Below, one piece after another: positions 6,990 through 29,874 of a stretch of DNA of 64,000 nt. Source of the stretch: an uncultured Roseicyclus sp. (GTDB lineage Bacteria > Pseudomonadota > Alphaproteobacteria > Rhodobacterales > Rhodobacteraceae); NCBI GenBank assembly GCA_964615955.1, contig CAZTUG010000003.1, positions 1,226-65,225 on the forward strand. The letters are read 5' to 3'. Under the pieces are notes generated by a model. The model made no database searches. It was given only the letters and a program-made list of their open reading frames with translations, and was not told the origin of the DNA. Positions within the stretch are counted from its first letter, which is position 1, and each line of letters begins with the position of its first letter. Position numbers and translations under genes: made by a program.

Positions 6990-6991
6990 TC

Positions 6992-7696: not shown

Positions 7697-7719
7697 CCCC
7701 AAACCAGAGTGGAGGACTG

Positions 7720-9141: not shown

Positions 9142-10302
9142 CTATTTCAAACGTTGCTCAAAAAACTCATCTTCGAGCCCTTCATATTTTTTGTCCAATA
9201 GCGGAGCCACGAAGCGCCACGGGACGAAGACTTCGTGCGAGCCAAAAGCGTAGGGCAGAACTCCATAGGGACTGAAATTCATCGTCAGGCCTCGGTCGTC
9301 GAAACTGAATTGCGAGGCGAGGCCCCAAGTGTGTTTCCGATCCTCAAATGAGTGCGTGATGAAGTCCTCTAGACCTTCGCCATCGAACATCGCGAGAAGG
9401 ACTTTCTTGCAATACTCAAGTAGCCGAAAGGCATTGTCTGCATCATGCCCTAGCAGATCATTGATTGAGCAAAGGCCATAGTCGGGCCCGAGAAAGTTAA
9501 GCGTAGTAACCCCATGGTTTGGGTGCGCGCCGCCCGAGTACCAATATACGGAAGACCGAACCGACAGAAACTCCCCACGCCGAAAAAATTCCTGCATGTT
9601 TAAACCCCACTCATGTGGTGCGTTGTATTCTACGGCCCGTTCTTTTTCTTGCTCGTCCATTAGCTTGAATTCGGCAACCGCACCAACAAACCCGCCCAGT
9701 GCTTCAGTAGTCAGACGTGCGTTGACAAAATCCCAGTAGACGTTGCCACCAGGGTACTGAAGGTAATCAGCGGAGACCAGAAAGTGCTCCGTTGATACAG
9801 ACGATTCGACATGCGAGGGCCGCGCCTCACCACTAGCGTCACGCGGGTCTTCCTTCACCGTCGTCGTTCTTTCGGGAGCAATCCGAAGGACGGTGCCGCC
9901 AAGTTGTCTTAAACGCTTCGTGACGGCATGCGCGAGTTGGTCGCGCCATGCCTCCTGGAAGTGGTCGATGTATTGAAATCGGATCAGCTCAACCGGCATC
10001 CGCAGGTCGTCAAGGCGAATAAAAACGACGTATGTCGCGCCAATCGGTTGGTCGTCGACGAGTTTAAGTGTCTGCTTGATTTCACGGTTCACGACGCCCG
10101 GCCGCGAAAATACCTCGGTAGATATCAAGTGGACAACGAAATCGGCATCTTGCTGTGCGGTGGCTCTTTCACGGTCCCAATCGTCGCCACCGGTCAGAGA
10201 TTCTTTGTCGAACCAGACGTTGTCATTGAGGGTTCTCAGAAAGCCACAAACCTCTTTAGCCGCCTCAAGACGTTCCGATGGATATCCCAAGAATATTTTC
10301 AC
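9142..10302 (-). CDS. TIR domain - DUF4163/DUF3298-like domain fusion protein
   Basis: The N-terminus VKIFLGYPSERLEAAKEVCGFLRTLNDNVWFDKESLTGGDDWDRERATAQQDADFVVHLISTEVFSRPGVVNREIKQ fits the bacterial TIR_2 pattern (F.SY, VW.D, G..W, conserved E). The C-terminus has the DUF3298 hallmark YWYSGGAHPNHG and LNF..G. No signal peptide or TM segment. Probable GTG start at 10302 (AAGGG 7 nt upstream); the track ORF extends to a TTG at 10380. Low GC. Confidence 0.8.
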   Translation of the reverse strand: MKIFLGYPSERLEAAKEVCGFLRTLNDNVWFDKESLTGGDDWDRERATAQQDADFVVHLISTEVFSRPGVVNREIKQTLKLVDDQPIGATYVVFIRLDDLRMPVELIRFQYIDHFQEAWRDQLAHAVTKRLRQLGGTVLRIAPERTTTVKEDPRDASGEARPSHVESSVSTEHFLVSADYLQYPGGNVYWDFVNARLTTEALGGFVGAVAEFKLMDEQEKERAVEYNAPHEWGLNMQEFFRRGEFLSVRSSVYWYSGGAHPNHGVTTLNFLGPDYGLCSINDLLGHDADNAFRLLEYCKKVLLAMFDGEGLEDFITHSFEDRKHTWGLASQFSFDDRGLTMNFSPYGVLPYAFGSHEVFVPWRFVAPLLDKKYEGLEDEFFEQRLK

Positions 10303-10544
10303 AGATCGCCCTTTGTCTCGATGAGTTTTCAGCAGAACCGTAAGCGATACGGGGGCTGTTGAGAAGGGCTGCGGCCACAATCCCTCAAATCGGGCATCTG
10401 CGGTTGTATGCTTCAGATTGTTGCTTCACCAAAAGGCTATTATCGAGGCGAAGCCGCTCGCCTGATCGGATTACTGTTTGTTCCCATGGGTTTGCGGATC
10501 TTCCGTGCGACACGACGCCGACGTTTCGTGTCCAACATTGGCAT

Positions 10545-10570
10545 AAGTCTTGGAGTTAACAAGACTTTTT
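10545..10570 (+). terminator. AT-rich hairpin plus T-run just inside the att-like end
   Basis: AAGTCTT-ggagttaac-AAGACTT followed by TTT. The stem is weak (7 bp, AT-rich). Confidence 0.25.
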
Positions 10571-10587
10571 GAGTGCAAGGAGTAACC

Positions 10588-10632
10588 CTCATAACCTGAA
10601 GGTCGTAGGTTCAAATCCTACTCCCGCAACCA
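10588..10632 (+). other. tRNA-Met (anticodon CAU) 3' fragment: anticodon loop to CCA, att-site-like remnant
   Basis: CTCATAACCTGAAGGTCGTAGGTTCAAATCCTACTCCCGCAACCA closely matches the 3' part of alphaproteobacterial initiator-type tRNA-Met (..CTCATAACCCGAAGGTCGTAGGTTCAAATCCTAC.CCCGCAACCA). The preceding 40 nt lack an acceptor 5' strand (GCGGGAG) and a D-arm, so this is not a functional tRNA. Confidence 0.7.
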
Positions 10633-10851
10633 ATTTTCTAAATACCATGAATGACTTAGCGCTGCGTCCGTTTGCTCGGGATCGCACCGCTAAAGTCATG
10701 GTGCGTAGCGTGCCCGCATGTGAATCCGGGAATAACGACTCGGGCACCGGCAGACCGCTTCGGGATGACGGCCAAGGCGGGGAACGGTCGTTCGCTGCGC
10801 CCGGCACGAATGCCCGGGACGCGCAGGATGCGGACCATGTCGAATTGGCGC

Positions 10852-11355
10852 CTAAGGTTTCGCGTCTCTGTCAATGGCGAAACTCAACACGGCAGGCAGC
10901 GCCAGTTGGTCGAGCTTGGCGAGGCGGTCGTCGATGTAATGTCCCGGGGCGTGAAGCAGGTTGACCGTTCCGATGAACTCTCCGCCCAGCACCACGGGCA
11001 GGTTTATCACGGACCCAAGACCGAGCGCGGCAATCATCTCGTGGTCGGGGAAGACGTCCGAAAATCCCTCGACAGAGTTCGCGACAAAAACCTCGCGCTC
11101 GCGGATCACGCGCCCGGTCCAGCGGTTCGGAACGATCTCCTTCAGTCCCGACAACGGGTAGTTCCTTGAATCGCTCGTGTATATACGCGCCGCGACGCCG
11201 CTTTCCGGGCCGGTCAGTCGGAACTCGGACACCGAGAAAAGCTTGTGGCCGATACAGGCCTGGCAAAGCTCCTCCAGAGCGGGGAACAGGTTGGTCCAGC
11301 CATCGCTCCGGACGGTGCGGGCGAAGCGCGCAAGTGGGGCAGTCCCGTTATCCAA
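10852..11355 (-). CDS. GAF domain-containing protein
   Basis: 167 aa. The GSVINLPVVLGGEFIGTVNLLH pattern is typical of small GAF proteins. The TTG start overlaps the stop of the upstream M24 gene by 8 nt. Confidence 0.75.
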   Translation of the reverse strand: MDNGTAPLARFARTVRSDGWTNLFPALEELCQACIGHKLFSVSEFRLTGPESGVAARIYTSDSRNYPLSGLKEIVPNRWTGRVIREREVFVANSVEGFSDVFPDHEMIAALGLGSVINLPVVLGGEFIGTVNLLHAPGHYIDDRLAKLDQLALPAVLSFAIDRDAKP

Positions 11356-20457: not shown

Positions 20458-20508
20458 TCGGGATATCAACACGCATCAGGAACAAGGTTGGGGGAAGAGG
20501 GACGACAG

Positions 20509-20720
20509 ATCACCACGACGGATCGCGAGTGCGTCTTCGCCCGGCACACCGGCATCGGCGGCCTGCAATTTCTGGATCCAGCCCCCCAAGACGCCGGACC
20601 CGGCGAGGTGCGCCTCAGGGTCGAGGCCTTCGCGCTCAACCGGGACGACATGGGTCGCATGCCGGGGCGCTATTCGGTCAACTTCGGCACCTTGCCCGCC
20701 CGTCTTGAACGCGCTGCCTC
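20509..20720 (+). pseudogene. zinc-type alcohol dehydrogenase/quinone oxidoreductase (MDR) N-terminal fragment
   Basis: ..RECVFARHTGIGGLQFLDPAPQDAGPGEVRLRVEAFALNRDDM.. matches the GroES-like N-terminus of MDR quinone reductases. Similarity is lost after about 70 aa, and no Rossmann domain is seen in any frame up to 21005. Confidence 0.4.
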
Positions 20721-20824
20721 CACCGGTCCCGCCGCGGAGGATCTTGCATTTGGGCCTCCCGCGCGCCGGGATCGCCCGCTGCGCCCTCCCGCACCCAACA
20801 ATCAATGAGATCTTCTCGCGTGAG

Positions 20825-20891
20825 CCCCCCCCCGACCGGAGCCCTCTTGCGTTCCGCACCCGCGCCCCGCGCACGCACCGCCCCCCCCCCC
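20825..20891. repeat. two homopolymeric C tracts (C9 at 20825-20833; C11 at 20881-20891)
   Basis: Counted directly in the sequence. They lie in non-coding or decayed DNA between convergent genes. Confidence 0.9.
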
Positions 20892-21005
20892 GGCACCGCC
20901 GCGCGAGACCACGGCGTCTCGCGCATCGCGATTCTCGGCGATGTCGGATCTCTGCCTGGCGCCGCCAAGCATCGGACCATGCTGCGATCGACATTCGTGA
21001 CGGTG

Positions 21006-22472
21006 TCAATTGCGCAAGGATCCACGATCATCCGTTTCGGGTTCTGCCGTTGCCACGCCCCAGACCGCCACGTTCAGCGGCAACACCCAGTCATCCGACC
21101 TTGCATATGCCAGATCGACGGCCGTGAGGTCGACCTCCGGGTCGACAAACAACTGTTCCGGGCGACCGTTCAGGGATTTCCAGATCTCGGCGCGAACCTC
21201 CACATCGCCATGGCCTGCATTGCGCCAGACCTCCTCCAGATGGGCTGCGAACTGGTGGATCATGTCCGAGCGGACCAGCATCTTGCCGGCCTGCCGCGCG
21301 GACAGGTATTCGGTCGGATCGACCGCCCAGACCTGATCGCCGGAAACCACGTAGAACACACCTTCGGCGCGGCGATCGTAGATCCGCATCCGCCACGAAA
21401 ACCGGTGGCCGTCGCCGCTCCAGCGAACCTCGGTCGGGAAGACGGCGGCGCGCAGCGGCAGCGCCACCTGCACACAGACCCAGCCGACCATGGCGACAAG
21501 GGCCGCCATCGGGATCAGACGGACCGGGCAAGACGCTTGCGTCACCGTGGTTGCGGGAAGCGCGGAGAGATCCTCCACCCGGCCATGCAGCCAGCGCGCG
21601 ACCCCGCGCGGCCAGTCGGGCGCAAAGAAGATCGTCGTCGCGGCGATGGTCAGCCATGGAAAGATGCCGATGTTGAAGAAGGCTGCGTTGGCGCTGTGGA
21701 AACAGCAATAGACAAGGAAGGTTGCCAGCCGCGTCCGCCGCCAGAGCAGAAGCGGTGCGCCAAGGACGTGCAGGGCGACGGTGGCCCACGCTCCCGCGAT
21801 GATGACCCAGTCGAACTGGAACAGGACTCCGAAGGGGAAATCCCCCGCCAGCGGTCGAAGCCAGAGCCCAAGCGGTTCGCCCGCCAGCCAGTCGGGCGTC
21901 AGTTTCACGAGGCCCGCGAAGATCAGCATGATCTCCATCTGCGTCCTGAGGATCGCGACCGACGCATAAGGCACCGATGTGCCGCGCACCCGGGAAAACA
22001 GCCATGCATCCAGTGACAAGGCCCTGTGCGCCGGCAGGAAGCACATCAGGATCAGGAACAGGATGACGAGGTAGAAGTGGTTGAGGTATTCCGCCTTGTC
22101 GAGCAGGAAGAAGTAGCTGAACAGCACCGTCAACACGACGATCGAGACGCGGTAGAACAGCCCCAGCATCACCAGCGCCGCCGAAAGGCCGACCAGCAGC
22201 CAGGCAACATGGATCCATGGCTCGGGAAGGGGCGTGACCCAGCCGAAACCGGCATAGGTGAAGTGGAACTCCGGCTCGACCCAGTAGCGATAGACACGGT
22301 CGTGGCGGATGAAGCGCCAGCAATCCACGACCATAAGCGCGCCCAGAGCGATGCGGAAGACCGCAAGCGACAGCGGCGATACCGGTCGGGACAGCACGGC
22401 GCGCAGGCGTTGGGCTTTGCCTGGCGCATCGGTGATGCGGTCGGCGGTTCGGGGATCGGCGAAGGTCGTCAT
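21006..22472 (-). CDS. HTTM domain protein, vitamin K-dependent gamma-carboxylase-like (HTTM plus lumenal/periplasmic domain)
   Basis: ATG at 22472, with GGGAGA 7 nt upstream. LAVFRIALGALMVVDCWRFI...FHFTYAGFGWV...LDKAEYLNHFYLVILFLILMCFLP is the HTTM signature. The C-terminal ~200 aa contain WSGDGHRFSWRMRIYDR, as in the VKGC lumenal domain. Confidence 0.85.
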   Translation of the reverse strand: MTTFADPRTADRITDAPGKAQRLRAVLSRPVSPLSLAVFRIALGALMVVDCWRFIRHDRVYRYWVEPEFHFTYAGFGWVTPLPEPWIHVAWLLVGLSAALVMLGLFYRVSIVVLTVLFSYFFLLDKAEYLNHFYLVILFLILMCFLPAHRALSLDAWLFSRVRGTSVPYASVAILRTQMEIMLIFAGLVKLTPDWLAGEPLGLWLRPLAGDFPFGVLFQFDWVIIAGAWATVALHVLGAPLLLWRRTRLATFLVYCCFHSANAAFFNIGIFPWLTIAATTIFFAPDWPRGVARWLHGRVEDLSALPATTVTQASCPVRLIPMAALVAMVGWVCVQVALPLRAAVFPTEVRWSGDGHRFSWRMRIYDRRAEGVFYVVSGDQVWAVDPTEYLSARQAGKMLVRSDMIHQFAAHLEEVWRNAGHGDVEVRAEIWKSLNGRPEQLFVDPEVDLTAVDLAYARSDDWVLPLNVAVWGVATAEPETDDRGSLRN

Positions 22473-22501
22473 GGCATGTCTCCCGTTTTCGGATCTCACG
22501 G

Positions 22502-22527
22502 GGAATTACGCGCCAGGTCGCGCGTTA
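22502..22527 (+). promoter_or_regulatory. ECF-type promoter candidate GGAAT-N16-CGTTA(ATCC) upstream of the DCC/poly-Asp operon
   Basis: -35 GGAAT at 22502-22506, a 16-nt spacer, and -10 CGTTA at 22523-22527. It is embedded in the imperfect palindrome GGAATTACGCGC-N6-GCGCGTTAATCC, so the opposite strand reads GGATT-N16-CGTAA towards the HTTM gene. Nearly the same motif occurs at 25635-25663. Confidence 0.45.
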
Positions 22528-22562
22528 ATCCCCCAGACATGTTGAAAATCTGGAGTCCGTTG

Positions 22563-22976
22563 ATGTCTGATCAGGCCCTGACGATCATTTACGATGGCCA
22601 ATGCCCATTCTGCGCTTCCTATGTCGCCATGGTGCAATTGAAAAAGACTGTGGGGCAAGTGGTGCTGGTCGATGCCAGAAGCGACGATCCGCGCGTGACC
22701 GCTTCGGTCGAGGCGGGCCACGACCTCGACCGCGGCATGGTGGTGCTGTGGCATGACGAGACATTCTTCGGTGATCGGGCAGTGCACTTGCTGGCCACGC
22801 TGACCGCCGCGGATGGCGGGATCGGCAGTCGCCTGCAACGGGCGGTCTTCCGCTCGCCTCGACGCGCGGCCCGGATCTATCCCGTTCTTGCGTGGGGGCG
22901 CCGCGCCTTTCTGCGGCTGATCGGGCGGCGGCCGATTGCCGGGCACCGAAAAGAAACTTCTGCCGGACGGGAATAG
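22563..22976 (+). CDS. DCC1-like thiol-disulfide oxidoreductase family protein (DUF393)
   Basis: MSDQALTIIYDGQCPFCASYV carries the family CxxC motif. ATG at 22563 has GGAG 8 nt upstream; an alternative ATG at 22539 would sit almost on the predicted -10. The first 170 aa of track ORF 22026.. are antisense to the HTTM gene. Confidence 0.85.
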   Translation: MSDQALTIIYDGQCPFCASYVAMVQLKKTVGQVVLVDARSDDPRVTASVEAGHDLDRGMVVLWHDETFFGDRAVHLLATLTAADGGIGSRLQRAVFRSPRRAARIYPVLAWGRRAFLRLIGRRPIAGHRKETSAGRE

Positions 22977-23039
22977 CCTCGGGTCTCGCCCGTTTTATGT
23001 CCGAGGCCCGACTGGCGGGTCCGAGCGAAAGGAAACCAC

Positions 23040-23303
23040 ATGACACATATGAAAACCCTGCTTGCGGCCACTGTGGCCGTCACGGCCCTGATGTCGGCAC
23101 CCCAGCCTGCACAAGCGCAATCCGGTGACCCGTTCCTGCGGTTGCTCAATTCGATGCTTCCGAACGCGCAGATGCGTCCGTCGCGCGGCGGCTGGGACGA
23201 CGATGACGACAATGGCCGCGGCAATTGGAACGACGACGACGACGATCGCGGTGGCCGCGACGACGACGACGATGACGGTCGTGGCAATGATGACGACGAC
23301 TGA
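23040..23303 (+). CDS. small secreted poly-Asp repeat protein
   Basis: 87 aa with RBS AAGGA. Signal peptide MTHMKTLLAATVAVTALMSAPQPAQA, then a tail WDDDDDNGRGNWNDDDDDRGGRDDDDDDGRGNDDDD. Same strand as the DCC gene and 63 nt downstream of it. Confidence 0.7.
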   Translation: MTHMKTLLAATVAVTALMSAPQPAQAQSGDPFLRLLNSMLPNAQMRPSRGGWDDDDDNGRGNWNDDDDDRGGRDDDDDDGRGNDDDD

Positions 23304-23351
23304 GCTGTCGGCACCGACTTCCCAGACTTCAACCAGCGACAGGTTCCCAAT

Positions 23352-23759
23352 ATGAAACCCATTTATCTTCTGCTTCCTGCCAGCGTCACGGCGCTGATGC
23401 TGCTCTCCACCTCGATCCACGCGCAAGCCGTGCGGTTCTCGGACGTGGACACCGACGGCAATGGCCGTCTGTCCTATTCCGAGCTGCAAGCCGCCTTCGG
23501 AACCAGCGCCGCCGATCGGATCTGGACGCGCAACAATGGCACCGAGATCAGCCGCGACGACATTCGCGCCATCAACGGAGCCGATGACGACGATGACGAC
23601 GGACGTGGTCTTGACGATGACGACGATGACGACGGACGCGATGACGACGACGATGACGGCGGCCGCGATGACGACGACGATGACGGCGGCCGCGATGACG
23701 ACGACGATGACGGCGGCAACGACGACGACGATGACGGCGGCAACGACGACGATGATTGA
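23352..23759 (+). CDS. secreted EF-hand plus poly-Asp repeat protein
   Basis: 135 aa with signal peptide MKPIYLLLPASVTALMLLSTSIHA. Canonical 12-residue EF loop DTDGNGRLSYSE (about 23448-23483). C-terminal tail ADDDDDDGRGLDDDDDDDGRDDDDDDGGRDDDDDDGGRDDDDDDGGNDDDDDGGNDDDD, encoded by a 27-bp tandem DNA repeat. Confidence 0.75.
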   Translation: MKPIYLLLPASVTALMLLSTSIHAQAVRFSDVDTDGNGRLSYSELQAAFGTSAADRIWTRNNGTEISRDDIRAINGADDDDDDGRGLDDDDDDDGRDDDDDDGGRDDDDDDGGRDDDDDDGGNDDDDDGGNDDDD

Positions 23760-23815
23760 TGCCGAAAGACCGTCATTTTCCTGAATGACCCCGACCGGGA
23801 CGTCCCATCCCCCCG

Positions 23816-23845
23816 CCCCGCACCGCCCCGTGCGGGGCGGTTTTC
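23816..23845 (+). terminator. rho-independent terminator of the DCC/poly-Asp operon
   Basis: CCCCGCAC-cgcccc-GTGCGGGG (8-bp GC stem) followed by CGGTTTTCGTT, 57 nt after the stop at 23759. Confidence 0.6.
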
Positions 23846-24286
23846 GTTCTGGTCTGGCGCAAACCGGCGATGGCCGCACGCTATCCCGCCTTCCCGGCTT
23901 GGGGACATGGCCGGATCGGCAGACTGGCCCAGGTGCATCAATGACCCATTTTGACAGTGGATAACGGCAGGTTCCACGTTCCCGGATCGGGCTTGCGCAG
24001 CCCCGGGGCCGCCTTGATCGCTCAACCAGCCGGGCGCTCGCGTGCCGGCGCAACCGACACGATCCAGCCCCGGGCAGAGGGTTGCGGTCGCTCGCTGGCC
24101 GTCACCCATGACCCAGGACGCACCCTGCCAGCATCCGATGCACGTGACTGGGGCTGGGGGCTGGGGACCGGGGCCGTGGACCCTGGCGCACGTCGCGCGA
24201 AAGTGGGTGCCGGTCTTGCGCATCTCGGACGCGCGCGATCAAAAGGGTGGCGTGGCTCGCGTGACCGCGGAAGAACGCGGCACGCC

Positions 24287-25069
24287 CTAACCGCCGAGAG
24301 CCGACAGGCGCGCGGCTTCTTCCTCGGGCGAAAGGGTGGGCCCGGCGCCAATGGCGTCGAGGTAGGTATCCAGCGTCTCAAGGGAAGAGGCCGGGGCATA
24401 GCCCGTGTCATCCAAACCCGACGACACCAGGGCAAAGCGGGTGCGCCATCCCCCTGCCTCGTGGCACACCACCGATACCGAGGTGCCGCTGTCAGGTGCG
24501 TCATATTCGAATTCGCGGCAGAACAGGCCGTCTCTGGTCAGGAACGACGCAATGATCGCCACCTCGCCAGGCCCTGCCGCCCCCCTCTCGCCTGCGGCCA
24601 ACCGGCCCAGGGCGTCTTCGATCCCCGGCGAGTCGAGCAGCGCAAGGCCAGGCCCGTTCCCCGTGTCGGGCCGGATCGCAAGGCTCGCGATGACCCCGCC
24701 GACCGCGCCGACCAGCAATGCGGCGCTGGCGGCAAGAGCCAGCGTGACGCGTGGGCGGGGCGGTGCCGCGGACACGGGAAAAGGCACCACCCGATCGGAG
24801 CCCGCTTCGGGCGCAGCGGTGGCGGGCGCGCCACGGGCGGCGGCCAATGTCGCCTCGACCCGCGCGGCAAGATCGCCCGGGACAGGCGCCTCGGGACGGG
24901 CAGCCCCAAGCGATCCCAAAAGGTCGCCGGTCTGCCGGAACATGGCGATCCGCGCCGCCAACGCGTCATCGGCGGCCTCTGCTTCGGCCACGCGCTGCGC
25001 CGCCGCGCGGTCGAGCTCCCCGTCGGCATAGGCCATCAGTGTTTCGTCGTCGAAATCGGTCGGGTTCAT
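24287..25069 (-). CDS. anti-sigma factor (single-pass membrane protein)
   Basis: 260 aa. N-terminus FDDETLMAYADGELDRAAAQRV is the typical anti-sigma N-terminal helix. TM segment VTLALAASAALLVGAVGGVIASLAI plus a ~120-aa periplasmic domain. Lies immediately downstream of the ECF sigma gene. Confidence 0.75.
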   Translation of the reverse strand: MNPTDFDDETLMAYADGELDRAAAQRVAEAEAADDALAARIAMFRQTGDLLGSLGAARPEAPVPGDLAARVEATLAAARGAPATAAPEAGSDRVVPFPVSAAPPRPRVTLALAASAALLVGAVGGVIASLAIRPDTGNGPGLALLDSPGIEDALGRLAAGERGAAGPGEVAIIASFLTRDGLFCREFEYDAPDSGTSVSVVCHEAGGWRTRFALVSSGLDDTGYAPASSLETLDTYLDAIGAGPTLSPEEEAARLSALGG

Positions 25070-25111
25070 TGCGTGTCACTCCTTGCCCCTCACGGATTAA
25101 CGCATGACGGA

Positions 25112-25603
25112 TCAGGTTATTCCCAGTTTTTCCGCCAGCGCCACACGGCCGCGCGCGAGGCGGCTCATCACGGTGCCCTTCGGGATACCGAGGATCTCGG
25201 CGGTTTCGGCGTAAGACATCTCCTCGAAACAGACGAGGGCGATGATCTCTTGATGTTCCGGGGCCAGCGTGGCCAGTGCGGCCTCGGTCTTCTGCAGCAT
25301 CAGGGTGCTTTCGGTCACGCGCGGACCATCGACCATCGCTGCTTCGGGCACATCGAAGATATCCACCTCCGTGCCGCGCGTCGCGAAGCGGCGGGTCTGG
25401 TCGATCCACGCATTGCGCAGGATGCGGAACAGCCAGGGATCCAGCCGGGTCTCGGGATCGAAGCGGTCACGCGCCACGATCGCCTTCTCGACGGTGATCT
25501 GCACCAGGTCGTCGGCGATGTCGCCCCGACGGCACAGCGACAATGCGAAACGGCGAAGCTTCGGCAGCGCCGCCACCAGATCCCGTTCGAATGCATCCCT
25601 CAT
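25112..25603 (-). CDS. RNA polymerase ECF sigma factor (sigma-70 family, group 4)
   Basis: 163 aa from ATG 25603. Region 2 DIADDLVQITVEKAI...DPWLFRILRNAWID and region 4 SYAETAEILGIPKGTVMSRLARGR. Track ORF 25112..26170 is over-extended (antisense to the S8 gene). Confidence 0.9.
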   Translation of the reverse strand: MRDAFERDLVAALPKLRRFALSLCRRGDIADDLVQITVEKAIVARDRFDPETRLDPWLFRILRNAWIDQTRRFATRGTEVDIFDVPEAAMVDGPRVTESTLMLQKTEAALATLAPEHQEIIALVCFEEMSYAETAEILGIPKGTVMSRLARGRVALAEKLGIT

Positions 25604-25634
25604 TTCCTGCGCCGACCCTTGCCGCGCAGGGCGC

Positions 25635-25660
25635 GGAATAAACCTTTGGTGCAGACGTAA
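25635..25660 (+). promoter_or_regulatory. ECF-type promoter candidate GGAAT-N16-CGTAA(TCC) upstream of the S8 peptidase gene
   Basis: -35 GGAAT at 25635-25639, a 16-nt spacer, and -10 CGTAA at 25656-25660, about 29 nt before the ATG at 25689. Same architecture and flanking ATCC as the motif at 22502-22531. Confidence 0.45.
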
Positions 25661-25688
25661 TCCTTTTGACCATGTTAAACCAGAAGAG

Positions 25689-27071
25689 ATGACCGCGATG
25701 ATGCACCGCCTCTTGTTGATCGTTCCCCTTGCCGCGCTGTTCGTGATCGGACTTTCGGCGGTTCCGTCTTTCGTTGCGGACGGTCGGATGGCCTCGATGG
25801 CGTTTGCCGACGACGACGACGATGGCGGCGGCAACGACGACGATGACGGCGGTGGCGGTGGTGGCGCGGCCGGGGCAACCGACGACGATGAAGGGCGGTT
25901 TCCCGTGTTCGGGAACCGTCCGCGCACGCCGCAGGCTGGCCCAGCCGGCCCGCAGGCACCCGATTTCGCCCCGGACGAGATCGTGACCCTTGCGCTGACC
26001 GAGGCGGATCTTGCCGTGCTTGTGGGGCAGGGCTTCACCGTGCTGGATGAACAGGCGCTGGAAGCGTTAGATACCACGTCCCGCCGTTTGCGCATCCCCA
26101 ACGACCTGACGCTGGACGAGGCACGCGAAGCCGCCCGCGGTGTTCCCAGCGGGCAGGACGCCGACTTCAACCACTATTATCGCTCCGAACAGGCGTTTTC
26201 GTCGAGTTGCCGAGGCGTCGACTGCCCGGCGCGCATCCTTGTGGACTGGCCACTGGACCTGTCGCGCGACGGTGGCTGCGGCAACGGCGTCCGGATCGGG
26301 ATGATCGACACCGGCATCAATGCCGCGCACACCACCTTCACGGGTGCCGATCTGGAGGTGCTGCGGCTGGGCGATGAAGCCTTGCCCGAATCCGGTGCCT
26401 TGCACGGAACCGCCGTCGCGGCTCTTCTGGTGGGCGACCCGGGCTCCCGTTCGCCCGGCCTCGTTCCCGGGGCCAGCCTGATCGCCGTCGATGCCTTCCA
26501 CAGTTCGGGCGGTGACGAACGCACCGATGTCTTCACCTTGCTGTCGGGCCTCGACCATCTGGCGGAGGCCAGGGTGTCGATCATCAACCTGAGCCTCGCC
26601 GGACCGCCCAATGCCGTGCTGGAACGCGCCGTGACGCAGCTGGTGGAAGCCGAGGATATCGTCCTTGTCGCAGCCGTGGGCAATGACGGGCCCGCTGCCG
26701 ATCCGGCCTATCCGGCGGCCTATGCGTCCGTTATCGCCGTGACGGCGGTGGACCGCGACGGCGTGGTCTACCGCCGCGCGATCACCGGCTCGCATGTGGA
26801 TATTGCCGCGCCCGGGGTCGATGTCTGGACCGCCGCCTCGATCAGCGGCGCCCGCCCGAAGACCGGCACGTCCTACGCGGTGCCCTTCGTGACGGCGGCG
26901 GCGGCCATCTTGCGCGATACCCGCCCGGAACTGCGCGCCGCCGAAGTCGCGGCGGCCTTGCAGGCGCTGGCCCGCGATATCGGGGATCCCGGCCCGGACA
27001 ATGTCTATGGCGCGGGGCTGGTGCAATTCGATCCGGTCTGCAGCGACCGGCCCCTGATCCTTCCGGACTGA
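25689..27071 (+). CDS. S8 family serine peptidase (subtilase) with N-terminal signal/anchor and poly-Asp/Gly tract
   Basis: ATG at 25689, in frame with track ORF 25269... Hydrophobic N-terminus MHRLLLIVPLAALFVIGLSAV, then ADDDDDGGGNDDDDGGGGGG. Catalytic triad contexts GMIDTGI (Asp), HGTAVAALL (His) and GTSYAVPFVTAAAA (Ser). Confidence 0.9.
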   Translation: MTAMMHRLLLIVPLAALFVIGLSAVPSFVADGRMASMAFADDDDDGGGNDDDDGGGGGGAAGATDDDEGRFPVFGNRPRTPQAGPAGPQAPDFAPDEIVTLALTEADLAVLVGQGFTVLDEQALEALDTTSRRLRIPNDLTLDEAREAARGVPSGQDADFNHYYRSEQAFSSSCRGVDCPARILVDWPLDLSRDGGCGNGVRIGMIDTGINAAHTTFTGADLEVLRLGDEALPESGALHGTAVAALLVGDPGSRSPGLVPGASLIAVDAFHSSGGDERTDVFTLLSGLDHLAEARVSIINLSLAGPPNAVLERAVTQLVEAEDIVLVAAVGNDGPAADPAYPAAYASVIAVTAVDRDGVVYRRAITGSHVDIAAPGVDVWTAASISGARPKTGTSYAVPFVTAAAAILRDTRPELRAAEVAAALQALARDIGDPGPDNVYGAGLVQFDPVCSDRPLILPD

Positions 27072-27163
27072 AATGGTCCGCCGCCTTGCGGGCGACAGGG
27101 CGCCCGTCATTCATCGAGGGATCATCCCGCCGGTCGCGCGTCCGCCCGCAAGGTCTGTCCGCT

Positions 27164-27511
27164 TCAGCCTGCGCAGTCCCGACACCGGATCAACGTGGGA
27201 TCGAGCTCAAGCCGCTGCTGCCCGATAAATTCGCCGCACTCCTCGCACCAGCCGAATTCACCCGAGTCCATCCGCCGGACGGCGGCCTCAAGCGCCCTGA
27301 TCCGTCCAAGCCGCCGCGTTTGCTGGGCGGCGGCCATGGCCTGTTGTTGCATCGCATCCATTCGGCTGAGCCGGCCGACGCTCTGCTGGTCAAGCTCCAC
27401 GGGCCGACGGTCTGCCGATGTCTGCACGGAGGCCGTGCGCAGGCTCTGCAACTCGTCGCGAAGCCGCGGCAGGAACGTGGTCTTCAAGTGCGCGGGGCCG
27501 CGGTCCGTCAT
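27164..27511 (-). CDS. TraR/DksA family C4-type zinc-finger protein
   Basis: 115 aa. Coiled N-terminal part and C-terminus CEECGEFIGQQRLELDPTLIRCRDC (CxxC-N17-CxxC). Lies 3 nt downstream of the Usp gene. Confidence 0.85.
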   Translation of the reverse strand: MTDRGPAHLKTTFLPRLRDELQSLRTASVQTSADRRPVELDQQSVGRLSRMDAMQQQAMAAAQQTRRLGRIRALEAAVRRMDSGEFGWCEECGEFIGQQRLELDPTLIRCRDCAG

Positions 27512-27514
27512 GCC

Positions 27515-28369
27515 CTACCTCATCAGCACCACGGGCACCTTGCAGGTACGGACCATTTCGGTCGTGGTCGATCCGATCACGAGACTGCGAATGCGGCTGT
27601 GCCCATAGGCACCCATGACGACCATGCCGAAACCTTCCTCCTCGACCATCTTGCCCAGCCCGGCTTCCGGTTGGCCGGAAACGATCCGCGTCTCGGCGTC
27701 GATGCCCGCAGCCTTCAGAAGCGCCTTCGCATCGGCAAGGCCCTTCTGCGCCTCGGACGTCTCGTTCCCGACGGTCACGATGGTGATGGCCAGTTGTGCA
27801 AACAGCGCGCTGCGCGAAATGTGATCCACCGCCTTCATCGCGGACACGCCGCCGTCATAGGCCACCAGAACGCTTTCGATCGGCTTGAAGGCGCGGGCGG
27901 CCACGAAGACGGGACGGTGTGCCGCCCGCACGATCCGCTCCAGGTTCGATCCCAGATGGCCCTTTGCGAAATCCGCCGCTTCGCCGCGCTTGCCGATGAC
28001 GATGACGCGGGCATCGCCTTCGATCTCGCCGATGGCCTCGACGATGTCGCCATGGCGCAGGCGGGTGGTGATTTCGGTCACCCCGTCCTGATCCACGATG
28101 GCGCGCGCATCCTCAAGGATGGCGCGGCCCCGGTGGCTCACCAGCTTCGCGCGCTGCGCGTCCAATTCGGCCAGTTCCTCCATCAATCTCGTGCGGGCGC
28201 CAAGGCGAATCGCGCCGGAAAGGTCCCGATTGCCCGTGCCGTCGCGGCGCCCCAGCACATGGATCAACTCCACCGGCGATTGCGTGCGCTGCGAAATCCA
28301 GGCGGCATGGCGGCAGACGCTTTCGGAATAGACGGACCCGTCCACAAGGGCGATGATCTTGTCTGTCAT
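27515..28369 (-). CDS. universal stress protein (tandem UspA domains)
   Basis: ATG at 28369, after GGGAGA. MTDKIIALVDGS..., two Usp repeats, C-terminus GHSRIRSLVIGSTTTEMVRTCKVPVVLM. Confidence 0.85.
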   Translation of the reverse strand: MTDKIIALVDGSVYSESVCRHAAWISQRTQSPVELIHVLGRRDGTGNRDLSGAIRLGARTRLMEELAELDAQRAKLVSHRGRAILEDARAIVDQDGVTEITTRLRHGDIVEAIGEIEGDARVIVIGKRGEAADFAKGHLGSNLERIVRAAHRPVFVAARAFKPIESVLVAYDGGVSAMKAVDHISRSALFAQLAITIVTVGNETSEAQKGLADAKALLKAAGIDAETRIVSGQPEAGLGKMVEEEGFGMVVMGAYGHSRIRSLVIGSTTTEMVRTCKVPVVLMR

Positions 28370-28383
28370 GGTCTTGGTCTCCC

Positions 28384-29874
28384 TCAATGGTCCATCAACG
28401 TGTCCATGGCGCCGGGCTTGTCATGGATGGCCAACCGGTCCACCAGCGTCTCGGTTGCGTCATTCATGCCCACCACCTCGACCTCGGCCCCGTCGCGCCG
28501 GAACTTGAGGATCGCCATGTCCAGCGCCTGCACCGAACTGATATCCCAGATATGCGCCGCACTCACGTCGATCACGACCCGCTCGGGCGCTTCCTTGAAA
28601 TCGAACGCGTCCATGAAATCCTCCACCGAGCCGTAGAAAAGCTGACCCTCGACGCGATAGGTCCGCACGCGGCCATCATCGCTGATATCCGAGGTGACGC
28701 GGAACAGCTGCGCGATCTTGCCGGCAAAGAAGATTCCCGACAGCAGCACGCCCACCAGCACACCGATGGCAAGGTTGTGGGTGTAGACCACGGTCGCGAC
28801 GGTGGCGATCATCACGATGGAGGACGACCGCGGATGCACCGCAAGGTTCTTGATCGACGACCACGAAAAGGTGCCGACCGAGACCATGATCATGATCGCG
28901 ACCAGCGCGGGCATGGGAATGATGCTGACCAGATCGCCAAGGCCGACGACCAGGACCAGCAGGAAGACACCCGCCACGAAGCACGACAGCCGCCCGCGCC
29001 CGCCCGACTTCACGTTGATGATGGATTGGCCGATCATGGCGCAGCCCGCCATGCCGCCGATGAAGCCCGTGGCGGTATTGGCCAGCCCCTGGCCCACACA
29101 TTCCTGGTTCCGGTTCGATTTCGTGTCGGTCAGGTCGTCCACGATGTTCTGCGTCATCAGGCTTTCAAGCAGGCCCACGACGGCGACGGCGACCGAATAG
29201 GGCAGGATGATCATCAGTGTCTCGAAGGTCGGCGCGATGTCGGGGATCAGGAAGACCGGCAGCGTGTCCGGAAGCGCGCCCATGTCGCCCACCGTGCGCA
29301 CGTCCAGCCCCAGCGCGAAGGTCAGCGCCGTCAGGACCACGATGGTCACGAGCGGCGAGGGAATGGCCGTCGTCAGAAGCGGCAAGAGATAGATGATCGC
29401 CAGTCCCATTGCGACCAGCGCATAGGTCAACCACGTGACATCGCGTGGGTCAAGCTCGGGGAATTGCGCCATGAAGATCAGGATCGCCAGCGCGTTGACG
29501 AAGCCGATCATCACCGATTTCGACACGTAACGCATGACGAAGCCAAGCCTCAGCACGCCCATGGCGATCTGCAACAGCCCCGCCAGCACAGTGGCCGCCA
29601 GCAGGTATTCAAGCCCGTGATCGCGCACCAGCGTGACCATCAGGACGGCTGTCGCGGCCGTCGCGGCCGAGATCATGCCGGGTCGCCCGCCCGTGATGGC
29701 GGTGATGACGGCTATGGAGAAGCTCGCGTAAAGACCCACCTTGGGGTCCACGCCCGCGATGATGGAAAAGGCGATGGCCTCGGGAATGAGGGCCAGCGCA
29801 ACGACAAGGCCTGCAAGCAGGTCGCCGCGGATGTTGCCAAGCCACTGGCTGCGATAAGCGTCGAGAGAAATCAT
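28384..29874 (-). CDS. SulP family inorganic anion transporter with C-terminal STAS domain
   Basis: ATG at 29874 gives [42 protein letters not shown], the canonical SulP start. A STAS domain lies at the C-terminus ([15 protein letters not shown]..). The extra 174 aa of the track ORF are not protein-like. Confidence 0.9.

What the first reader, a model, noticed from the sequence alone, without database searches (positions are those of the whole stretch)
21006..27071. Candidate undescribed envelope system: VKGC-like HTTM protein, DCC oxidoreductase, two secreted poly-Asp proteins, ECF sigma/anti-sigma and a poly-Asp-tagged subtilase
Seen in sequence. A full-length vitamin-K-dependent gamma-carboxylase-like protein (HTTM plus lumenal-type domain, minus strand, 22472->21006) is divergent from a same-strand run with short gaps that ends in one terminator. 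That run holds a DCC/DUF393 CxxC protein (22563-22976), an 87-aa signal-peptide protein ending in (D5-6-G/N-G-R)n (23040-23303), and a 135-aa signal-peptide protein with a canonical EF loop and a ~50-aa (D6-7-G-G-R/N)n tail (23352-23759). About 0.5 kb further on lies an ECF sigma/anti-sigma operon (25603->24287), divergent from an S8 subtilase (25689-27071). The subtilase N-terminal region carries the same kind of tract (ADDDDDGGGNDDDDGGGGGG). Near-identical ECF-type promoter motifs precede the DCC operon and the subtilase (reported separately).

Established knowledge. HTTM and DCC genes are known neighbours. Eukaryotic VKGC carboxylates acidic residues of secreted Ca-binding proteins in the lumen. 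Bacterial HTTM substrates are unknown.

Inference. The adjacent, co-regulated, periplasm-directed hyper-acidic proteins could be substrates or partners of the HTTM/DCC pair. Two examples would be carboxylation or another modification of acidic residues, or a Ca/metal-binding matrix processed by the subtilase. I am not aware of a described system with this composition.
Basis: partly seen in the sequence, partly recalled or inferred. Interest (0 to 1): 0.85.

Follow-up and report, generated by a model that had tools for sequence, protein, structure and literature searches.

The report
Sigma-controlled carboxylase-like enzyme with poly-aspartate proteins
A stress-type sigma factor appears to switch on a bacterial relative of the blood-clotting vitamin K carboxylase together with secreted proteins made largely of aspartate, which gives the first concrete, testable candidates for what this enzyme family modifies in bacteria.

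Summary

Comparative genomics shows the genes form a real system.
- In 80 alphaproteobacterial HTTM loci, 50 of 52 small poly-Asp ORFs lie within 1 kb of the HTTM gene.
- The sigma/anti-sigma/S8 triad is adjacent in 31 of the 80 loci, in at least 10 different gene orders.
- One promoter motif, GGAATA-N16/17-CGT(T/A), precedes HTTM, DCC, the poly-Asp genes, the S8 gene and the anti-sigma gene. It does not precede the sigma gene.

The regulatory part is not new. It is the ECF26 RpoE6/EcfR6/SMa0142 module of Sinorhizobium meliloti (52% identity). Experiments there mapped the same promoters, but the function stayed undefined.

The cargo appears to be new: a VKGC-like enzyme, a DCC protein and secreted poly-Asp proteins. 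I found no paper describing it. Other genomes attach a different cargo to the same module: DUF6065 plus secreted (Ser/Asn)n proteins, in strict 7-of-7 co-occurrence. This enzyme-plus-repeat-protein pairing supports an enzyme-substrate reading.

The HTTM protein keeps five of six GGCX catalytic residues. The acidic tracts contain no Glu, so any carboxylation would have to be on Asp. The chemistry is untested.

The parts
21006..22472 (-). VKGC-like membrane enzyme (HTTM domain plus VKGC lumenal-type domain), 488 aa
   Evidence: Pfam PF05090 E 1.4e-77 and PF22777 E 2.1e-36. Matches human GGCX at E 2.4e-41 over residues 21-468. N131/H132, K190, W195 and F271 correspond to GGCX N159/H160, K218, W223 and F299; GGCX Y395 is His356 here.
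22507..22531 (-). ECF26-type promoter facing HTTM, one-mismatch copy (GGATT-N16-CGTA); the reverse half of a palindrome shared with the DCC promoter
   Evidence: Sequence read. In 43 of 81 loci the HTTM side carries a perfect GGAAT-N-CGT(T/A), often as GGAATAACG-N7-CGTTATTCC.
22502..22526 (+). ECF26-type promoter of the DCC gene (GGAATTACGCGCCAGGTCGCGCGTT)
   Evidence: The motif is present upstream of DCC in 46 of 72 loci.
22563..22976 (+). DCC1-like/DUF393 thiol-disulfide oxidoreductase, 137 aa, no signal peptide, motif DGQCPFC
   Evidence: Pfam PF04134, 38.6 bits against a cut-off of 27.8. It is divergent from HTTM or next to it in 70 of 80 loci.
22970..22994 (+). ECF26-type promoter of pD87, overlapping the DCC stop codon
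   Evidence: 41 of 52 small poly-Asp ORFs in other loci have their own motif upstream, against a background of 0.087 per kb.
23040..23303 (+). pD87: signal peptide, then a DPFLRLLNSML helix, then (D4-6 + G/R/N/W)x4, ending in DDDD-COOH (family A)
   Evidence: 33 family-A relatives share the signal peptide, the DPxLRLLN motif and the DDDD end.
23352..23759 (+). pD135: signal peptide, EF-hand domain, then (D6-7 G-G-R/N)x7, ending in DDDD-COOH (family B). The tail is a 27-nt tandem repeat with about 5 copies.
   Evidence: (EF-hand_6 25.2 bits against 25). 16 family-B relatives were found.
23813..23850 (+). Intrinsic terminator closing the DCC-pD87-pD135 run
   Evidence: Stem of 11 pairs (10 G-C) followed by TTTTCGTTCT.
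24287..25069 (-). Membrane anti-sigma factor (EcfR6-type): N-terminal anti-sigma helices, one TM helix, and a periplasmic domain with invariant Cys184, Cys202, Trp208 and a nearly invariant YAPASSL stretch
   Evidence: Alignment A3. AF2 mean pLDDT 82. NCBIfam anti-sigma hit on the N-terminal region only, below cut-off. No fold match in the PDB.
25099..25123 (-). ECF26-type promoter of the anti-sigma gene, inside the 3' end of the sigma ORF
   Evidence: Conserved in 30 of 32 loci. The same arrangement was mapped experimentally for ecfR6 in S. meliloti (PMC6180224).
25112..25603 (-). ECF sigma factor, group ECF26, RpoE6-type, 163 aa
   Evidence: Pfam Sigma70_r2 and r4_2. 52% identical to S. meliloti RpoE6, E 2e-56. 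No ECF26 motif upstream of the gene in 30 of 32 loci.
25635..25659 (+). ECF26-type promoter of the S8 gene (GGAATAAACCTTTGGTGCAGACGTA)
   Evidence: Conserved in 26 of 33 loci. The equivalent SMa0142 promoter was mapped in S. meliloti.
25689..27071 (+). Secreted pro-subtilase (S8): signal peptide, a disordered poly-Asp/Gly and Pro-rich linker, an I9-like prodomain ending in DADFNHYYR, then the catalytic domain (D207, H239, S395)
   Evidence: Pfam E 1.9e-31. Alignment A2. AF2: residues 25-93 below pLDDT 50; residues 97-165 form beta-alpha-beta-beta-alpha-beta at pLDDT 86-94. Foldseek best hits are unprocessed pro-subtilisins 3whi and 3afg, E 3e-16. 52% identical to the pSymA S8.

Best explanation
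This is an ECF26 (RpoE6-type) envelope signalling module: a sigma factor, a membrane anti-sigma factor and a divergent secreted pro-subtilase. In this organism its regulon is a protein-modification cassette made of a VKGC-like HTTM membrane enzyme, a DCC CxxC oxidoreductase and two secreted poly-Asp proteins.

Proposed working:
1. The sigma gene is transcribed from an ordinary promoter, and the anti-sigma factor holds the sigma at the membrane.
2. An unknown periplasmic cue releases the sigma.
3. The sigma then fires five GGAATA-N16/17-CGT promoters: HTTM, DCC, pD87(-pD135), S8 and the anti-sigma gene. The last one gives negative feedback.
4. The poly-Asp proteins and the pro-S8, whose prodomain also starts with a poly-Asp tract, are exported by the Sec pathway.
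5. In the periplasm the HTTM active site, outward-facing by homology with GGCX, modifies their Asp tracts. The most likely chemistry is quinol- and O2-driven carboxylation to beta-carboxy-Asp, which would create malonate-like cation-binding side chains as in Gla proteins.
6. DCC supplies or recycles reducing equivalents, analogous to VKOR.
7. The S8 matures or trims the products.

Shown here: the gene content, the conservation, the shared promoter, the catalytic-residue conservation and the orthology to RpoE6.
Inferred: the enzyme-substrate relation, the chemistry, and the roles of DCC and S8.

Rough confidences: real co-regulated system 0.9; poly-Asp proteins are HTTM clients 0.5; the modification is Asp carboxylation 0.3.
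For: Linkage:
- 50 of 52 small poly-Asp ORFs in 1.33 Mb of HTTM loci lie within 1 kb of HTTM.
- In loci found from the S8 side, they occur in 3 of 3 loci with HTTM (L095, L096, L118) and 0 of 14 without.
- The triad lies within 10 kb of HTTM in 31 of 80 loci, in at least 10 gene orders.

Co-regulation:
- The motif precedes HTTM (43/81), DCC (46/72), the poly-Asp genes (41/52), S8 (26/33) and the anti-sigma gene (30/32), but the sigma gene only 2/32.
- The spacer is 16 nt in 189 cases and 17 nt in 43, with 1-5 cases for every other spacing.
- Presence of the motif associates with presence of poly-Asp genes, Fisher p = 2e-10.
- S. meliloti RpoE6 was shown experimentally to drive the orthologous protease, the anti-sigma gene from a promoter inside the sigma ORF, and neighbouring hypothetical genes, from -35 GGAATA promoters (PMC6180224).

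Enzyme competence:
- K218, N159/H160, W223 and F299 of GGCX are conserved in all 79 intact HTTM homologues out of 80 loci.

Modular pairing:
- The same ECF26 module elsewhere carries DUF6065 plus secreted (S/N)n proteins. These co-occur in exactly the same 7 loci out of 105, and again on pSymA.
- One locus carries an Asp/Asn beta-hydroxylase behind the motif.

Joint decay:
- Hoeflea halophila L040 has a stop codon in HTTM, no motif and no poly-Asp gene.

Precedent:
- The bacterial VKGC orthologue MloH carboxylates an Asp-derived unit (PMC12647623; PMC12186529).
Against: - No biochemical data exist.
- The tracts contain Asp only (0 and 2 Glu), so the known substrate residue is absent.
- MloH carboxylates the alpha-carbon of a small-molecule intermediate, not peptidyl Asp.
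- By textbook knowledge Rhodobacterales make ubiquinone, not menaquinone, so the cofactor is unclear.
- DCC has no signal peptide, so it probably sits on the other side of the membrane from the HTTM active site.
- HTTM+DCC also exists without poly-Asp genes and without the motif, in a clade at or below about 57% identity with the same catalytic residues.
- The triad often exists without HTTM.
- GGCX Y395 is His here.
- The association statistics are not corrected for phylogeny.
Confidence: 0.45

Rival explanations
1. The poly-Asp proteins, and the (S/N)n proteins elsewhere, are unmodified, intrinsically disordered periplasmic polyanions or hydrophilins. They would buffer Ca2+/Mg2+/metals, inhibit mineral scale or retain water. 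HTTM/DCC would do a separate envelope job, such as quinone or lipid redox chemistry. The genes would share a sigma only because they answer the same stress.
For: - HTTM+DCC occurs without poly-Asp genes in a sister clade.
- The triad and its poly-Asp-tagged S8 occur without HTTM.
- pD135 has an EF-hand and family C has a PepSY domain, both functional without modification.
- Other motif-preceded neighbours include polyphosphate-type VTC/DUF4956 genes, i.e. another polyanion.
- Many hosts come from saline or hypersaline sources, judging by the record titles.
Against: - Small poly-Asp genes are found almost only beside HTTM/DCC: 50 of 52 within 1 kb, and 0 of 14 S8 loci without HTTM.
- The alternative repeat-protein type is strictly paired with a different putative enzyme, DUF6065.
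- Pairing of this kind is not expected for mere co-stress genes.
Confidence: 0.3
2. The repeat proteins belong to the signalling and protease side. They would be substrates, inhibitors or multi-copy precursors cut by the S8 into short D6-GGR-type peptides. Alternatively, their conserved DDDD C-terminus would be the ligand sensed by the anti-sigma periplasmic domain as a feedback signal. HTTM would be an accessory.
For: - 49 of 53 small proteins end in at least four Asp, and most (S/N)n proteins do as well.
- The S8 prodomain begins with the same tract.
- The S8 resembles maturation proteases: PatA/PatG and QhpE NCBIfam hits and PatA among the Foldseek hits.
- The triad is the most widely conserved part. 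The anti-sigma family has 775 representatives at E<=1e-30.
Against: - There is no PDZ-like or other known C-terminus-binding fold in the anti-sigma factor or the S8.
- This model does not explain why the poly-Asp genes follow HTTM/DCC rather than the triad.
Confidence: 0.15
3. The shared motif is read by the general stress sigma EcfG (consensus GGAAC-N16/17-CGTT), or is an operator for a dimeric regulator, rather than by the adjacent ECF26 sigma.
For: - The motif resembles the EcfG consensus.
- RpoE2/RpoE6 regulon overlap was observed in S. meliloti.
- The HTTM-DCC site is palindromic.
Against: - The -35 element is GGAATA, with T rather than C, in about 230 instances.
- The motif is oriented toward the gene at non-palindromic sites.
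- It co-occurs with the triad.
- Exactly these promoters responded most strongly to RpoE6 in S. meliloti: log2FC 4.7 and 6.5 with RpoE6.
Confidence: 0.08
4. The adjacency is chance, or the poly-Asp ORFs are not genes.
For: The sequence is low-complexity. Annotation pipelines sometimes call the antisense frame over it.
Against: - Signal peptides and N-domains are conserved across genera.
- The ORFs have their own promoters.
- Linkage is kept through rearrangements.
- An identical protein is called as a gene in 5 independent metagenome contigs.
Confidence: 0.02

Closest known systems
Sinorhizobium meliloti RpoE6 / EcfR6 / SMa0142 (ECF26 sigma, anti-sigma, divergent serine protease; Lang et al. 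2018, PMC6180224)
   Same: - The sigma is 52% identical and the S8 is 52% identical.
- The gene order is the same.
- The -35 GGAATA / -10 CGT promoters are the same.
- The anti-sigma promoter lies inside the sigma ORF.
- The sigma gene is not driven by its own motif.
   Different: On pSymA the local cargo is DUF6065 (the SMa0148 equivalent) plus a secreted (NSS)n protein, not HTTM/DCC/poly-Asp. The paper did not assign a function and did not note the repeat proteins.
Animal vitamin K cycle: GGCX + VKOR + Gla proteins + furin
   Same: - A homologous enzyme, E 2e-41 over about 450 residues, with K218, N159/H160, W223 and F299 conserved.
- The same logic: a membrane carboxylase facing the extracytoplasmic side, a CxxC redox partner, secreted acidic cation-binding clients, and an S8-family protease in the pathway.
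   Different: - The candidate clients have Asp, not Glu.
- There is no recognisable Gla domain or propeptide.
- The enzyme is shorter (488 aa against 758 aa).
- GGCX Y395 is His here.
- DCC is unrelated to VKOR and lacks a signal peptide.
- The hosts are thought to lack naphthoquinones (own knowledge).
MloH of Streptomyces (malonomycin biosynthesis; Law et al. 2018, cited in PMC12647623 and PMC12186529)
   Same: It is a bacterial VKGC orthologue with demonstrated carboxylase activity on an aspartyl-derived substrate.
   Different: MloH carboxylates the alpha-carbon of a PKS-NRPS intermediate, not a ribosomal secreted protein. It has no ECF, DCC or poly-Asp context.
Bacillus subtilis sdpABC (the HTTM-domain protein SdpB and SdpA mature the secreted SdpC toxin); from my own knowledge, not tested here beyond NCBIfam
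   Same: An HTTM membrane protein, a small cytoplasmic partner and a signal-peptide protein client encoded together.
   Different: There was no NCBIfam hit for the window HTTM protein. The client there is a hydrophobic toxin, not a polyanion, and the regulation is different.
Asp-rich cation-binding proteins (calsequestrin tails, mollusc Asprich, synthetic polyaspartate antiscalants); own knowledge
   Same: Long Asp runs give high-capacity, low-affinity Ca2+ binding. pD135 adds an EF-hand.
   Different: There is no homology. These proteins are eukaryotic or synthetic and are not linked to a VKGC-like enzyme.

Membership tests
Vitamin K-dependent gamma-carboxylase (GGCX/VKGC) family | HTTM transmembrane domain plus VKGC lumenal domain | tested here: met
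   PF05090 E 1.4e-77 and PF22777 E 2.1e-36. Human GGCX chains match at E 2.4e-41.
Vitamin K-dependent gamma-carboxylase (GGCX/VKGC) family | Catalytic and substrate-pocket residues K218, N159, H160, W223, F299 and Y395 (roles taken from PMC12647623) | tested here: inconclusive
   Five of the six are conserved (K190, N131, H132, W195, F271), in all 79 intact homologues out of 80 loci. Y395 is replaced by an invariant His356.
Vitamin K-dependent gamma-carboxylase (GGCX/VKGC) family | Glu-containing client with a docking propeptide | tested here: not met
   The candidate clients have 0 and 2 Glu, none in the acidic tracts. No Gla-domain or propeptide family was detected.
Vitamin K-dependent gamma-carboxylase (GGCX/VKGC) family | Vitamin K hydroquinone/O2/CO2-dependent carboxylation activity | not testable with these tools
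   Needs enzymology. The host quinone content is unknown from the window.
ECF26 sigma/anti-sigma, RpoE6 subtype | Minimal sigma2+sigma4 ECF sigma homologous to RpoE6 | tested here: met
   Pfam r2 and r4_2. 52% identity to RpoE6, E 2e-56.
ECF26 sigma/anti-sigma, RpoE6 subtype | [quoted passage not shown] | tested here: met
   Alignment A3 and the AF2 model. The description of EcfR1/3/4/6 is in PMC6180224.
ECF26 sigma/anti-sigma, RpoE6 subtype | Divergently transcribed serine protease gene | tested here: met
   The S8 is divergent from the sigma here and in all loci with the triad. The arrangement is called widely conserved in ECF26 in PMC6180224.
ECF26 sigma/anti-sigma, RpoE6 subtype | Target promoters with -35 GGAATA and -10 (C)GT; anti-sigma promoter inside the sigma ORF; sigma gene's own promoter not of this type | tested here: met
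.
DCC1-like / DUF393 thiol-disulfide oxidoreductase | PF04134 match and the N-terminal DxxCxxC motif | tested here: met
   38.6 bits against a cut-off of 27.8. The sequence is YDGQCPFCASY.
Subtilase S8 with I9-like prodomain | Asp/His/Ser triad and an N-terminal beta-alpha-beta-beta-alpha-beta prodomain | tested here: met
   D207, H239 and S395 are invariant. The prodomain is modelled at pLDDT 86-94. The best Foldseek hits are unprocessed pro-subtilisins.
T7SS mycosin (TIGR03921) | Score above the equivalog cut-off | tested here: not met
   131 bits against a cut-off of 278.75.
EF-hand | Canonical 12-residue loop and a Pfam match | tested here: met
   The loop is DTDGNGRLSYSE. EF-hand_6 scores 25.2 bits against a cut-off of 25, which is marginal. 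It is conserved in 16 homologues.

The most novel reading that the evidence does not exclude
Alphaproteobacteria make Gla-like proteins. An ECF26-controlled VKGC homologue would convert the Asp runs of secreted poly-Asp proteins, and of the S8 prodomain, into poly-beta-carboxy-aspartate, using a non-naphthoquinone quinol and a DCC protein as its VKOR-equivalent. This would be a previously unknown ribosomal-protein modification system and the ancestral-type function of the vitamin K carboxylase family. A sister cassette, DUF6065 plus (Ser/Asn)n proteins, would perform a second unknown modification under the same sigma.
Probability: 0.25. Interest if true: 0.93.

Novelty: new variant of a known kind. 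Interest (0 to 1): 0.78.

Why it matters
Bacterial homologues of the vitamin K-dependent carboxylase have been known for about twenty years. No natural protein substrate has been found for them, and only one small-molecule case (MloH) is known.

This locus and about 45 related ones point to specific small, secreted, easily purified candidate clients. They also point to a predicted switch: overexpress the sigma or delete the anti-sigma. Together these turn the question into a simple mass-spectrometry experiment.

The finding also gives the first functional lead for the RpoE6-type ECF26 regulon, whose role was left undefined in S. meliloti. It suggests a general scheme in which one sigma/anti-sigma/protease module drives interchangeable cassettes, each an enzyme plus a low-complexity secreted protein.

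Carboxylated poly-Asp proteins would also be of interest for cation binding, control of mineralisation and enzymatic CO2 fixation.

Tried and rejected
- **Anti-sigma sensor fold.** The AF2 model is good (pLDDT 82), but Foldseek against the PDB gave nothing below E 0.1. The cue remains unknown.
- **His356 as an Asp-specificity determinant.** Rejected. His356 (in place of GGCX Y395) is invariant in the HTTM clade without poly-Asp genes as well.
- **NCBIfam.** No family for HTTM, DCC or the small proteins.
- **Rfam.** Nothing in 20500-27600 above noise.
- **ECF reclassification paper (PMC7826278).** No mention of S8 in the main text, and no supplements are held. The ECF26 assignment came instead from PMC6180224.
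- **Literature searches.** Searches for HTTM with DCC or RiPP, for carboxy-aspartate, and for DUF6065 or DUF393 found no description of this system.
- **Repeat-number variation.** None among near-identical metagenome copies. The differences were only in called start codons.
- **GC3-based gene caller.** My own caller picked antisense frames over DCC and the poly-Asp genes, so I dropped it in favour of all-ORF clustering and tblastn.
- **Downstream genes.** DksA/TraR, Usp and SulP are not conserved neighbours and were excluded from the system.
- **Whole-genome co-occurrence.** Whether genomes such as P. tegillarcae have HTTM elsewhere could not be tested.

Full report
**1. The observation**

- The minus-strand ORF 21006-22472 is a full-length VKGC-like protein (PF05090 E 1.4e-77, PF22777 E 2.1e-36).
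- 22563-22976 is a DCC1-like protein (38.6 bits against a cut-off of 27.8).
- 25112-25603(-) is an ECF sigma.
- 25689-27071 is an S8 peptidase.
- The two small ORFs have no Pfam or NCBIfam family as whole proteins. They do have typical Sec signal peptides and Asp-run tails.
- The N-domain of pD135 reaches the EF-hand_6 threshold when scanned alone.
- A strong terminator follows pD135.
- In the 64-kb window only these three proteins have two or more runs of at least four Asp.
- All four exact matches to GGAAT-N16/17-CGTW in the window lie in this region, against 1.3 expected for the whole window. They lie before DCC, before pD87 (overlapping the DCC stop codon), before the anti-sigma gene (inside the sigma ORF) and before S8.
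- The HTTM side of the DCC site carries a one-mismatch reverse copy.

**2. It is a conserved system**

One scan of the genome collection with an HTTM alignment returned 80 alphaproteobacterial loci at 46-76% identity.

- *Neighbours.* tblastn found DCC next to HTTM in 70 of the 80. It found the sigma, anti-sigma and S8 genes together within 10 kb in 31. All-against-all ORF clustering found no other widely shared neighbour.
- *Poly-Asp ORFs.* A search for ORFs with two or more Asp runs found 52 small ones in 1.33 Mb. Fifty lie within 1 kb of HTTM.
- *Families.* All have a signal peptide, and they fall into three families by what follows it. Family A has a DPxLRLLN helix (33 members, pD87-like). 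Family B has an EF-hand (16 members, pD135-like). Family C has a PepSY_2 domain (4 members, E 7e-9). Of the 53 (52 plus this window's), 49 end in at least four Asp at the very C-terminus.
- *S8 architecture.* In every locus the S8 has the same build. Its signal peptide ends in AWA and is followed at once by DDDDD. Then come a disordered Asp/Gly and Pro-rich linker, a conserved domain of about 70 residues ending in DADFNHYYR, and the catalytic domain.
- *S8 model.* AlphaFold models that conserved domain as beta-alpha-beta-beta-alpha-beta at pLDDT 86-94. The best structural matches are unprocessed pro-subtilisins. The poly-Asp tract therefore sits at the N-terminus of a prodomain.
- *Gene order.* The triad and the HTTM/DCC/poly-Asp genes occur in at least ten different relative orders and orientations. 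This argues for selection on linkage.
- *Joint decay.* In Hoeflea halophila the HTTM gene has an in-frame stop, and both the promoter motif and the poly-Asp gene are missing.

**3. One promoter type precedes all members**

| Gene | Loci with GGAAT-N15-18-CGT(T/A) upstream |
|---|---|
| DCC | 46 of 72 |
| HTTM | 43 of 81 |
| S8 | 26 of 33 |
| Anti-sigma | 30 of 32 |
| Sigma | 2 of 32 |

At HTTM the motif often forms a palindrome, GGAATAACG-N7-CGTTATTCC, which gives two overlapping divergent promoters. In addition, 41 of 52 small poly-Asp ORFs have their own copy, including those that have moved to the other side of HTTM.

The spacer distribution is very sharp: 189 instances at 16 nt, 43 at 17 nt, and 1-5 at each other length. 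Presence of the motif at HTTM goes with presence of poly-Asp genes (40/9/3/28, Fisher p = 2e-10) and with the triad (p = 1.6e-5). These tests are not corrected for phylogeny.

**4. The regulatory module is known**

The motif equals the published ECF26 consensus (-35 GGAATA, -10 GT). In Sinorhizobium meliloti, RpoE6 (ECF26) is followed by the anti-sigma gene ecfR6 and is divergent from the serine protease gene SMa0142.

Sigma overexpression with microarrays and 5'-RACE showed the following (PMC6180224):
- RpoE6-dependent promoters before SMa0142 and SMa0148, with SMa0146 also listed among the prominent RpoE6 targets.
- An RpoE6-dependent promoter for ecfR6 inside the rpoE6 ORF.
- An RpoD/RpoH-like promoter for rpoE6 itself.
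- No functional role could be assigned to RpoE6.

The window's sigma and S8 are each 52% identical to the pSymA proteins (E 2e-56 and 2e-118). My in-silico regulon therefore matches an experimentally mapped one in an orthologous system.

A profile of the anti-sigma factor finds 775 cluster representatives at E<=1e-30 among 1.84 billion proteins, so the module is widespread.

**5. The cargo differs between genomes, in enzyme-plus-client pairs**

Loci were also collected starting from the S8: four look-ups, a metagenome scan and plasmid records. The triad is always intact in them, but HTTM is adjacent in only 3 of 17. Exactly those three carry small poly-Asp genes, against 0 of 14 for the rest.

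Elsewhere the motif precedes other genes:
- DUF6065 and a secreted protein built as signal peptide, (Ser/Asn)n, then usually DDDD. Some of these proteins share the DPxxRFL helix of family A. The two genes co-occur in exactly the same 7 of 105 loci. They occur again on pSymA, where the DUF6065 gene carries the very promoter sequence mapped for SMa0148. The (NSS)n gene there is annotated on the wrong strand.
- DUF4956 plus VTC genes, an Asp/Asn beta-hydroxylase (PF05118, E 3e-15), an SLC13 permease with glycerate kinase, and a poly-(RRS) secreted protein.

Conversely, a more distant HTTM/DCC clade (at or below about 57% identity) has no motif and no acidic ORF. It sits among dnaJ-like, cobS, cobT, gatB and msrB genes.

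**6. The enzyme**

Against human GGCX (E 2.4e-41), the residues that deprotonate the quinol or hold CO2 and the substrate carboxylate are conserved in this protein. They are also conserved in all 79 intact homologues out of 80 loci: K218 is K190, N159/H160 are N131/H132, W223 is W195 and F299 is F271. Y395 is an invariant His356.

The enzyme is thus very probably catalytically active. By homology its active site and lumenal-type domain face the periplasm, which is where the signal-peptide proteins go.

The candidate clients contain no Glu in their acidic tracts, so canonical gamma-carboxylation is excluded. Carboxylation of Asp is chemically analogous. The only bacterial precedent, MloH, carboxylates the alpha-carbon of an Asp-derived small-molecule unit. 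From memory, not checked here, the vertebrate enzyme can carboxylate Asp in synthetic peptides at low efficiency.

DCC has the DxxCxxC motif but no signal peptide. A VKOR-like recycling role is therefore only an analogy. HTTM-DCC fusions are reported elsewhere.

**7. Most likely mechanism, and rivals**

Best model:
- An unknown periplasmic cue frees the ECF26 sigma.
- The sigma co-induces HTTM, DCC, the poly-Asp proteins, the pro-S8 and, as a brake, the anti-sigma factor.
- HTTM modifies the exported Asp tracts, probably to beta-carboxy-Asp.
- The S8 processes them.

I rate the real co-regulated system at about 0.9, the poly-Asp proteins as HTTM clients at about 0.5, and Asp carboxylation at about 0.3.

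Main rival (0.3): the repeat proteins are unmodified periplasmic polyanions, and HTTM/DCC has an independent envelope role.

Second rival (0.15): the repeat proteins serve the protease or the anti-sigma circuit, for example through the conserved DDDD C-terminus.

The strict enzyme-client pairing (HTTM with poly-Asp, DUF6065 with (S/N)n) is the strongest argument for the best model. The lack of any chemistry data is its main weakness.

**8. Novelty**

Searches of the full-text library found no paper linking HTTM or VKGC-like enzymes to poly-Asp proteins or to ECF26.

- Known: the ECF26 RpoE6-type triad and its promoters, the HTTM and DCC families, and their adjacency.
- New as far as I can tell: HTTM/DCC belong to this regulon; a conserved class of secreted poly-Asp proteins with DDDD ends accompanies them; and the same module drives alternative enzyme-plus-repeat-protein cassettes.

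I file it as a new variant of a known kind, with a roughly one-in-four chance that it hides a categorically new protein modification.

Noticed in passing
L017, L031, L092, L093, L094, L101, L102; pSymA L116:5853-6566(+) and about 6700-7140(-): DUF6065 genes and secreted proteins built as signal peptide plus (Ser/Asn)n, most ending in DDDD, occur in exactly the same 7 of 105 loci and again on pSymA. Both are preceded by the ECF26 motif. This looks like a second enzyme-client cassette of the same regulon. On pSymA the DUF6065 gene carries the promoter mapped for SMa0148, the strongest RpoE6 target.
   Followed up: partly
L098: motif at 6819(-), ORF 6672-6103(-): An Asp/Asn beta-hydroxylase (PF05118, E 3.4e-15) lies behind an ECF26 motif next to the triad in a 758-kb metagenome contig. 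This is another Asp/Asn-modifying enzyme in the same regulon. It is a single case.
   Followed up: partly
L092:5591-7001(-), L093:5587-6969(-): A DUF4956 plus VTC-domain (polyphosphate-type) gene pair lies next to the triad in two Tabrizicola-like loci; an ECF26 motif was found upstream of it in L093 (7067, minus strand). The product would be another polyanion.
   Followed up: no
L118 (Paracoccus albus plasmid p1) 7119-8459; L116 6817-7206: Public annotation breaks on these low-complexity genes. PGAP truncates the S8 and calls an antisense 'hypothetical protein' over its poly-Asp region. On pSymA the (NSS)n gene is annotated on the opposite strand as an LEELEL protein. Such genes are probably under-counted in databases.
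   Followed up: yes
L116 (S. meliloti ABS7 pSymA) about 7200-7990(-): The ecfR6 anti-sigma reading frame is split by a frameshift in this strain, and no CDS is listed for it. If real, the regulon could be constitutively on in this strain.
   Followed up: no
L040 (Hoeflea halophila KCTC 23107) 10001-11332: The HTTM gene carries an in-frame stop (..RRYYV*PEF..). The locus also lacks the ECF26 motif and any poly-Asp ORF, which suggests the cassette is decaying as a unit.
   Followed up: partly
L104: motif at 3145(-): A small secreted protein with a poly-basic (RRS/KKS)n tail lies behind an ECF26 motif. It is a cationic counterpart to the poly-Asp proteins.
   Followed up: no
window 20488-20808(+): A 106-aa ORF just beyond the 3' end of HTTM looks like an N-terminal fragment of a zinc-type/quinone oxidoreductase (GGLQFLD..PGEVRLRVEAFALNRDD). 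It is not conserved in other loci and is probably a gene remnant.
   Followed up: partly
window 23582-23755: The pD135 tail is a 27-nt tandem repeat of about 5 copies at 89% match, which suggests recent expansion by slippage or unequal recombination. No copy-number differences were seen among five near-identical metagenome contigs.
   Followed up: yes
window 22980-22992(+): A short hairpin plus TTTTAT lies right after the DCC stop codon, inside the spacer of the pD87 promoter. It could be a weak terminator or attenuator separating DCC from the poly-Asp genes.
   Followed up: no
window 23760-24286: A GC-rich gap of 527 nt (about 70% GC) lies between pD135 and the end of the anti-sigma gene. It has no convincing ORF and no Rfam match. 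The equivalent gap is about 120 nt in close relatives such as L019.
   Followed up: partly
window 27164-28387(-): A DksA/TraR zinc-finger protein and a tandem-Usp protein lie downstream of the S8. They have no counterparts in the 80 related loci, so they are not part of the system.
   Followed up: yes
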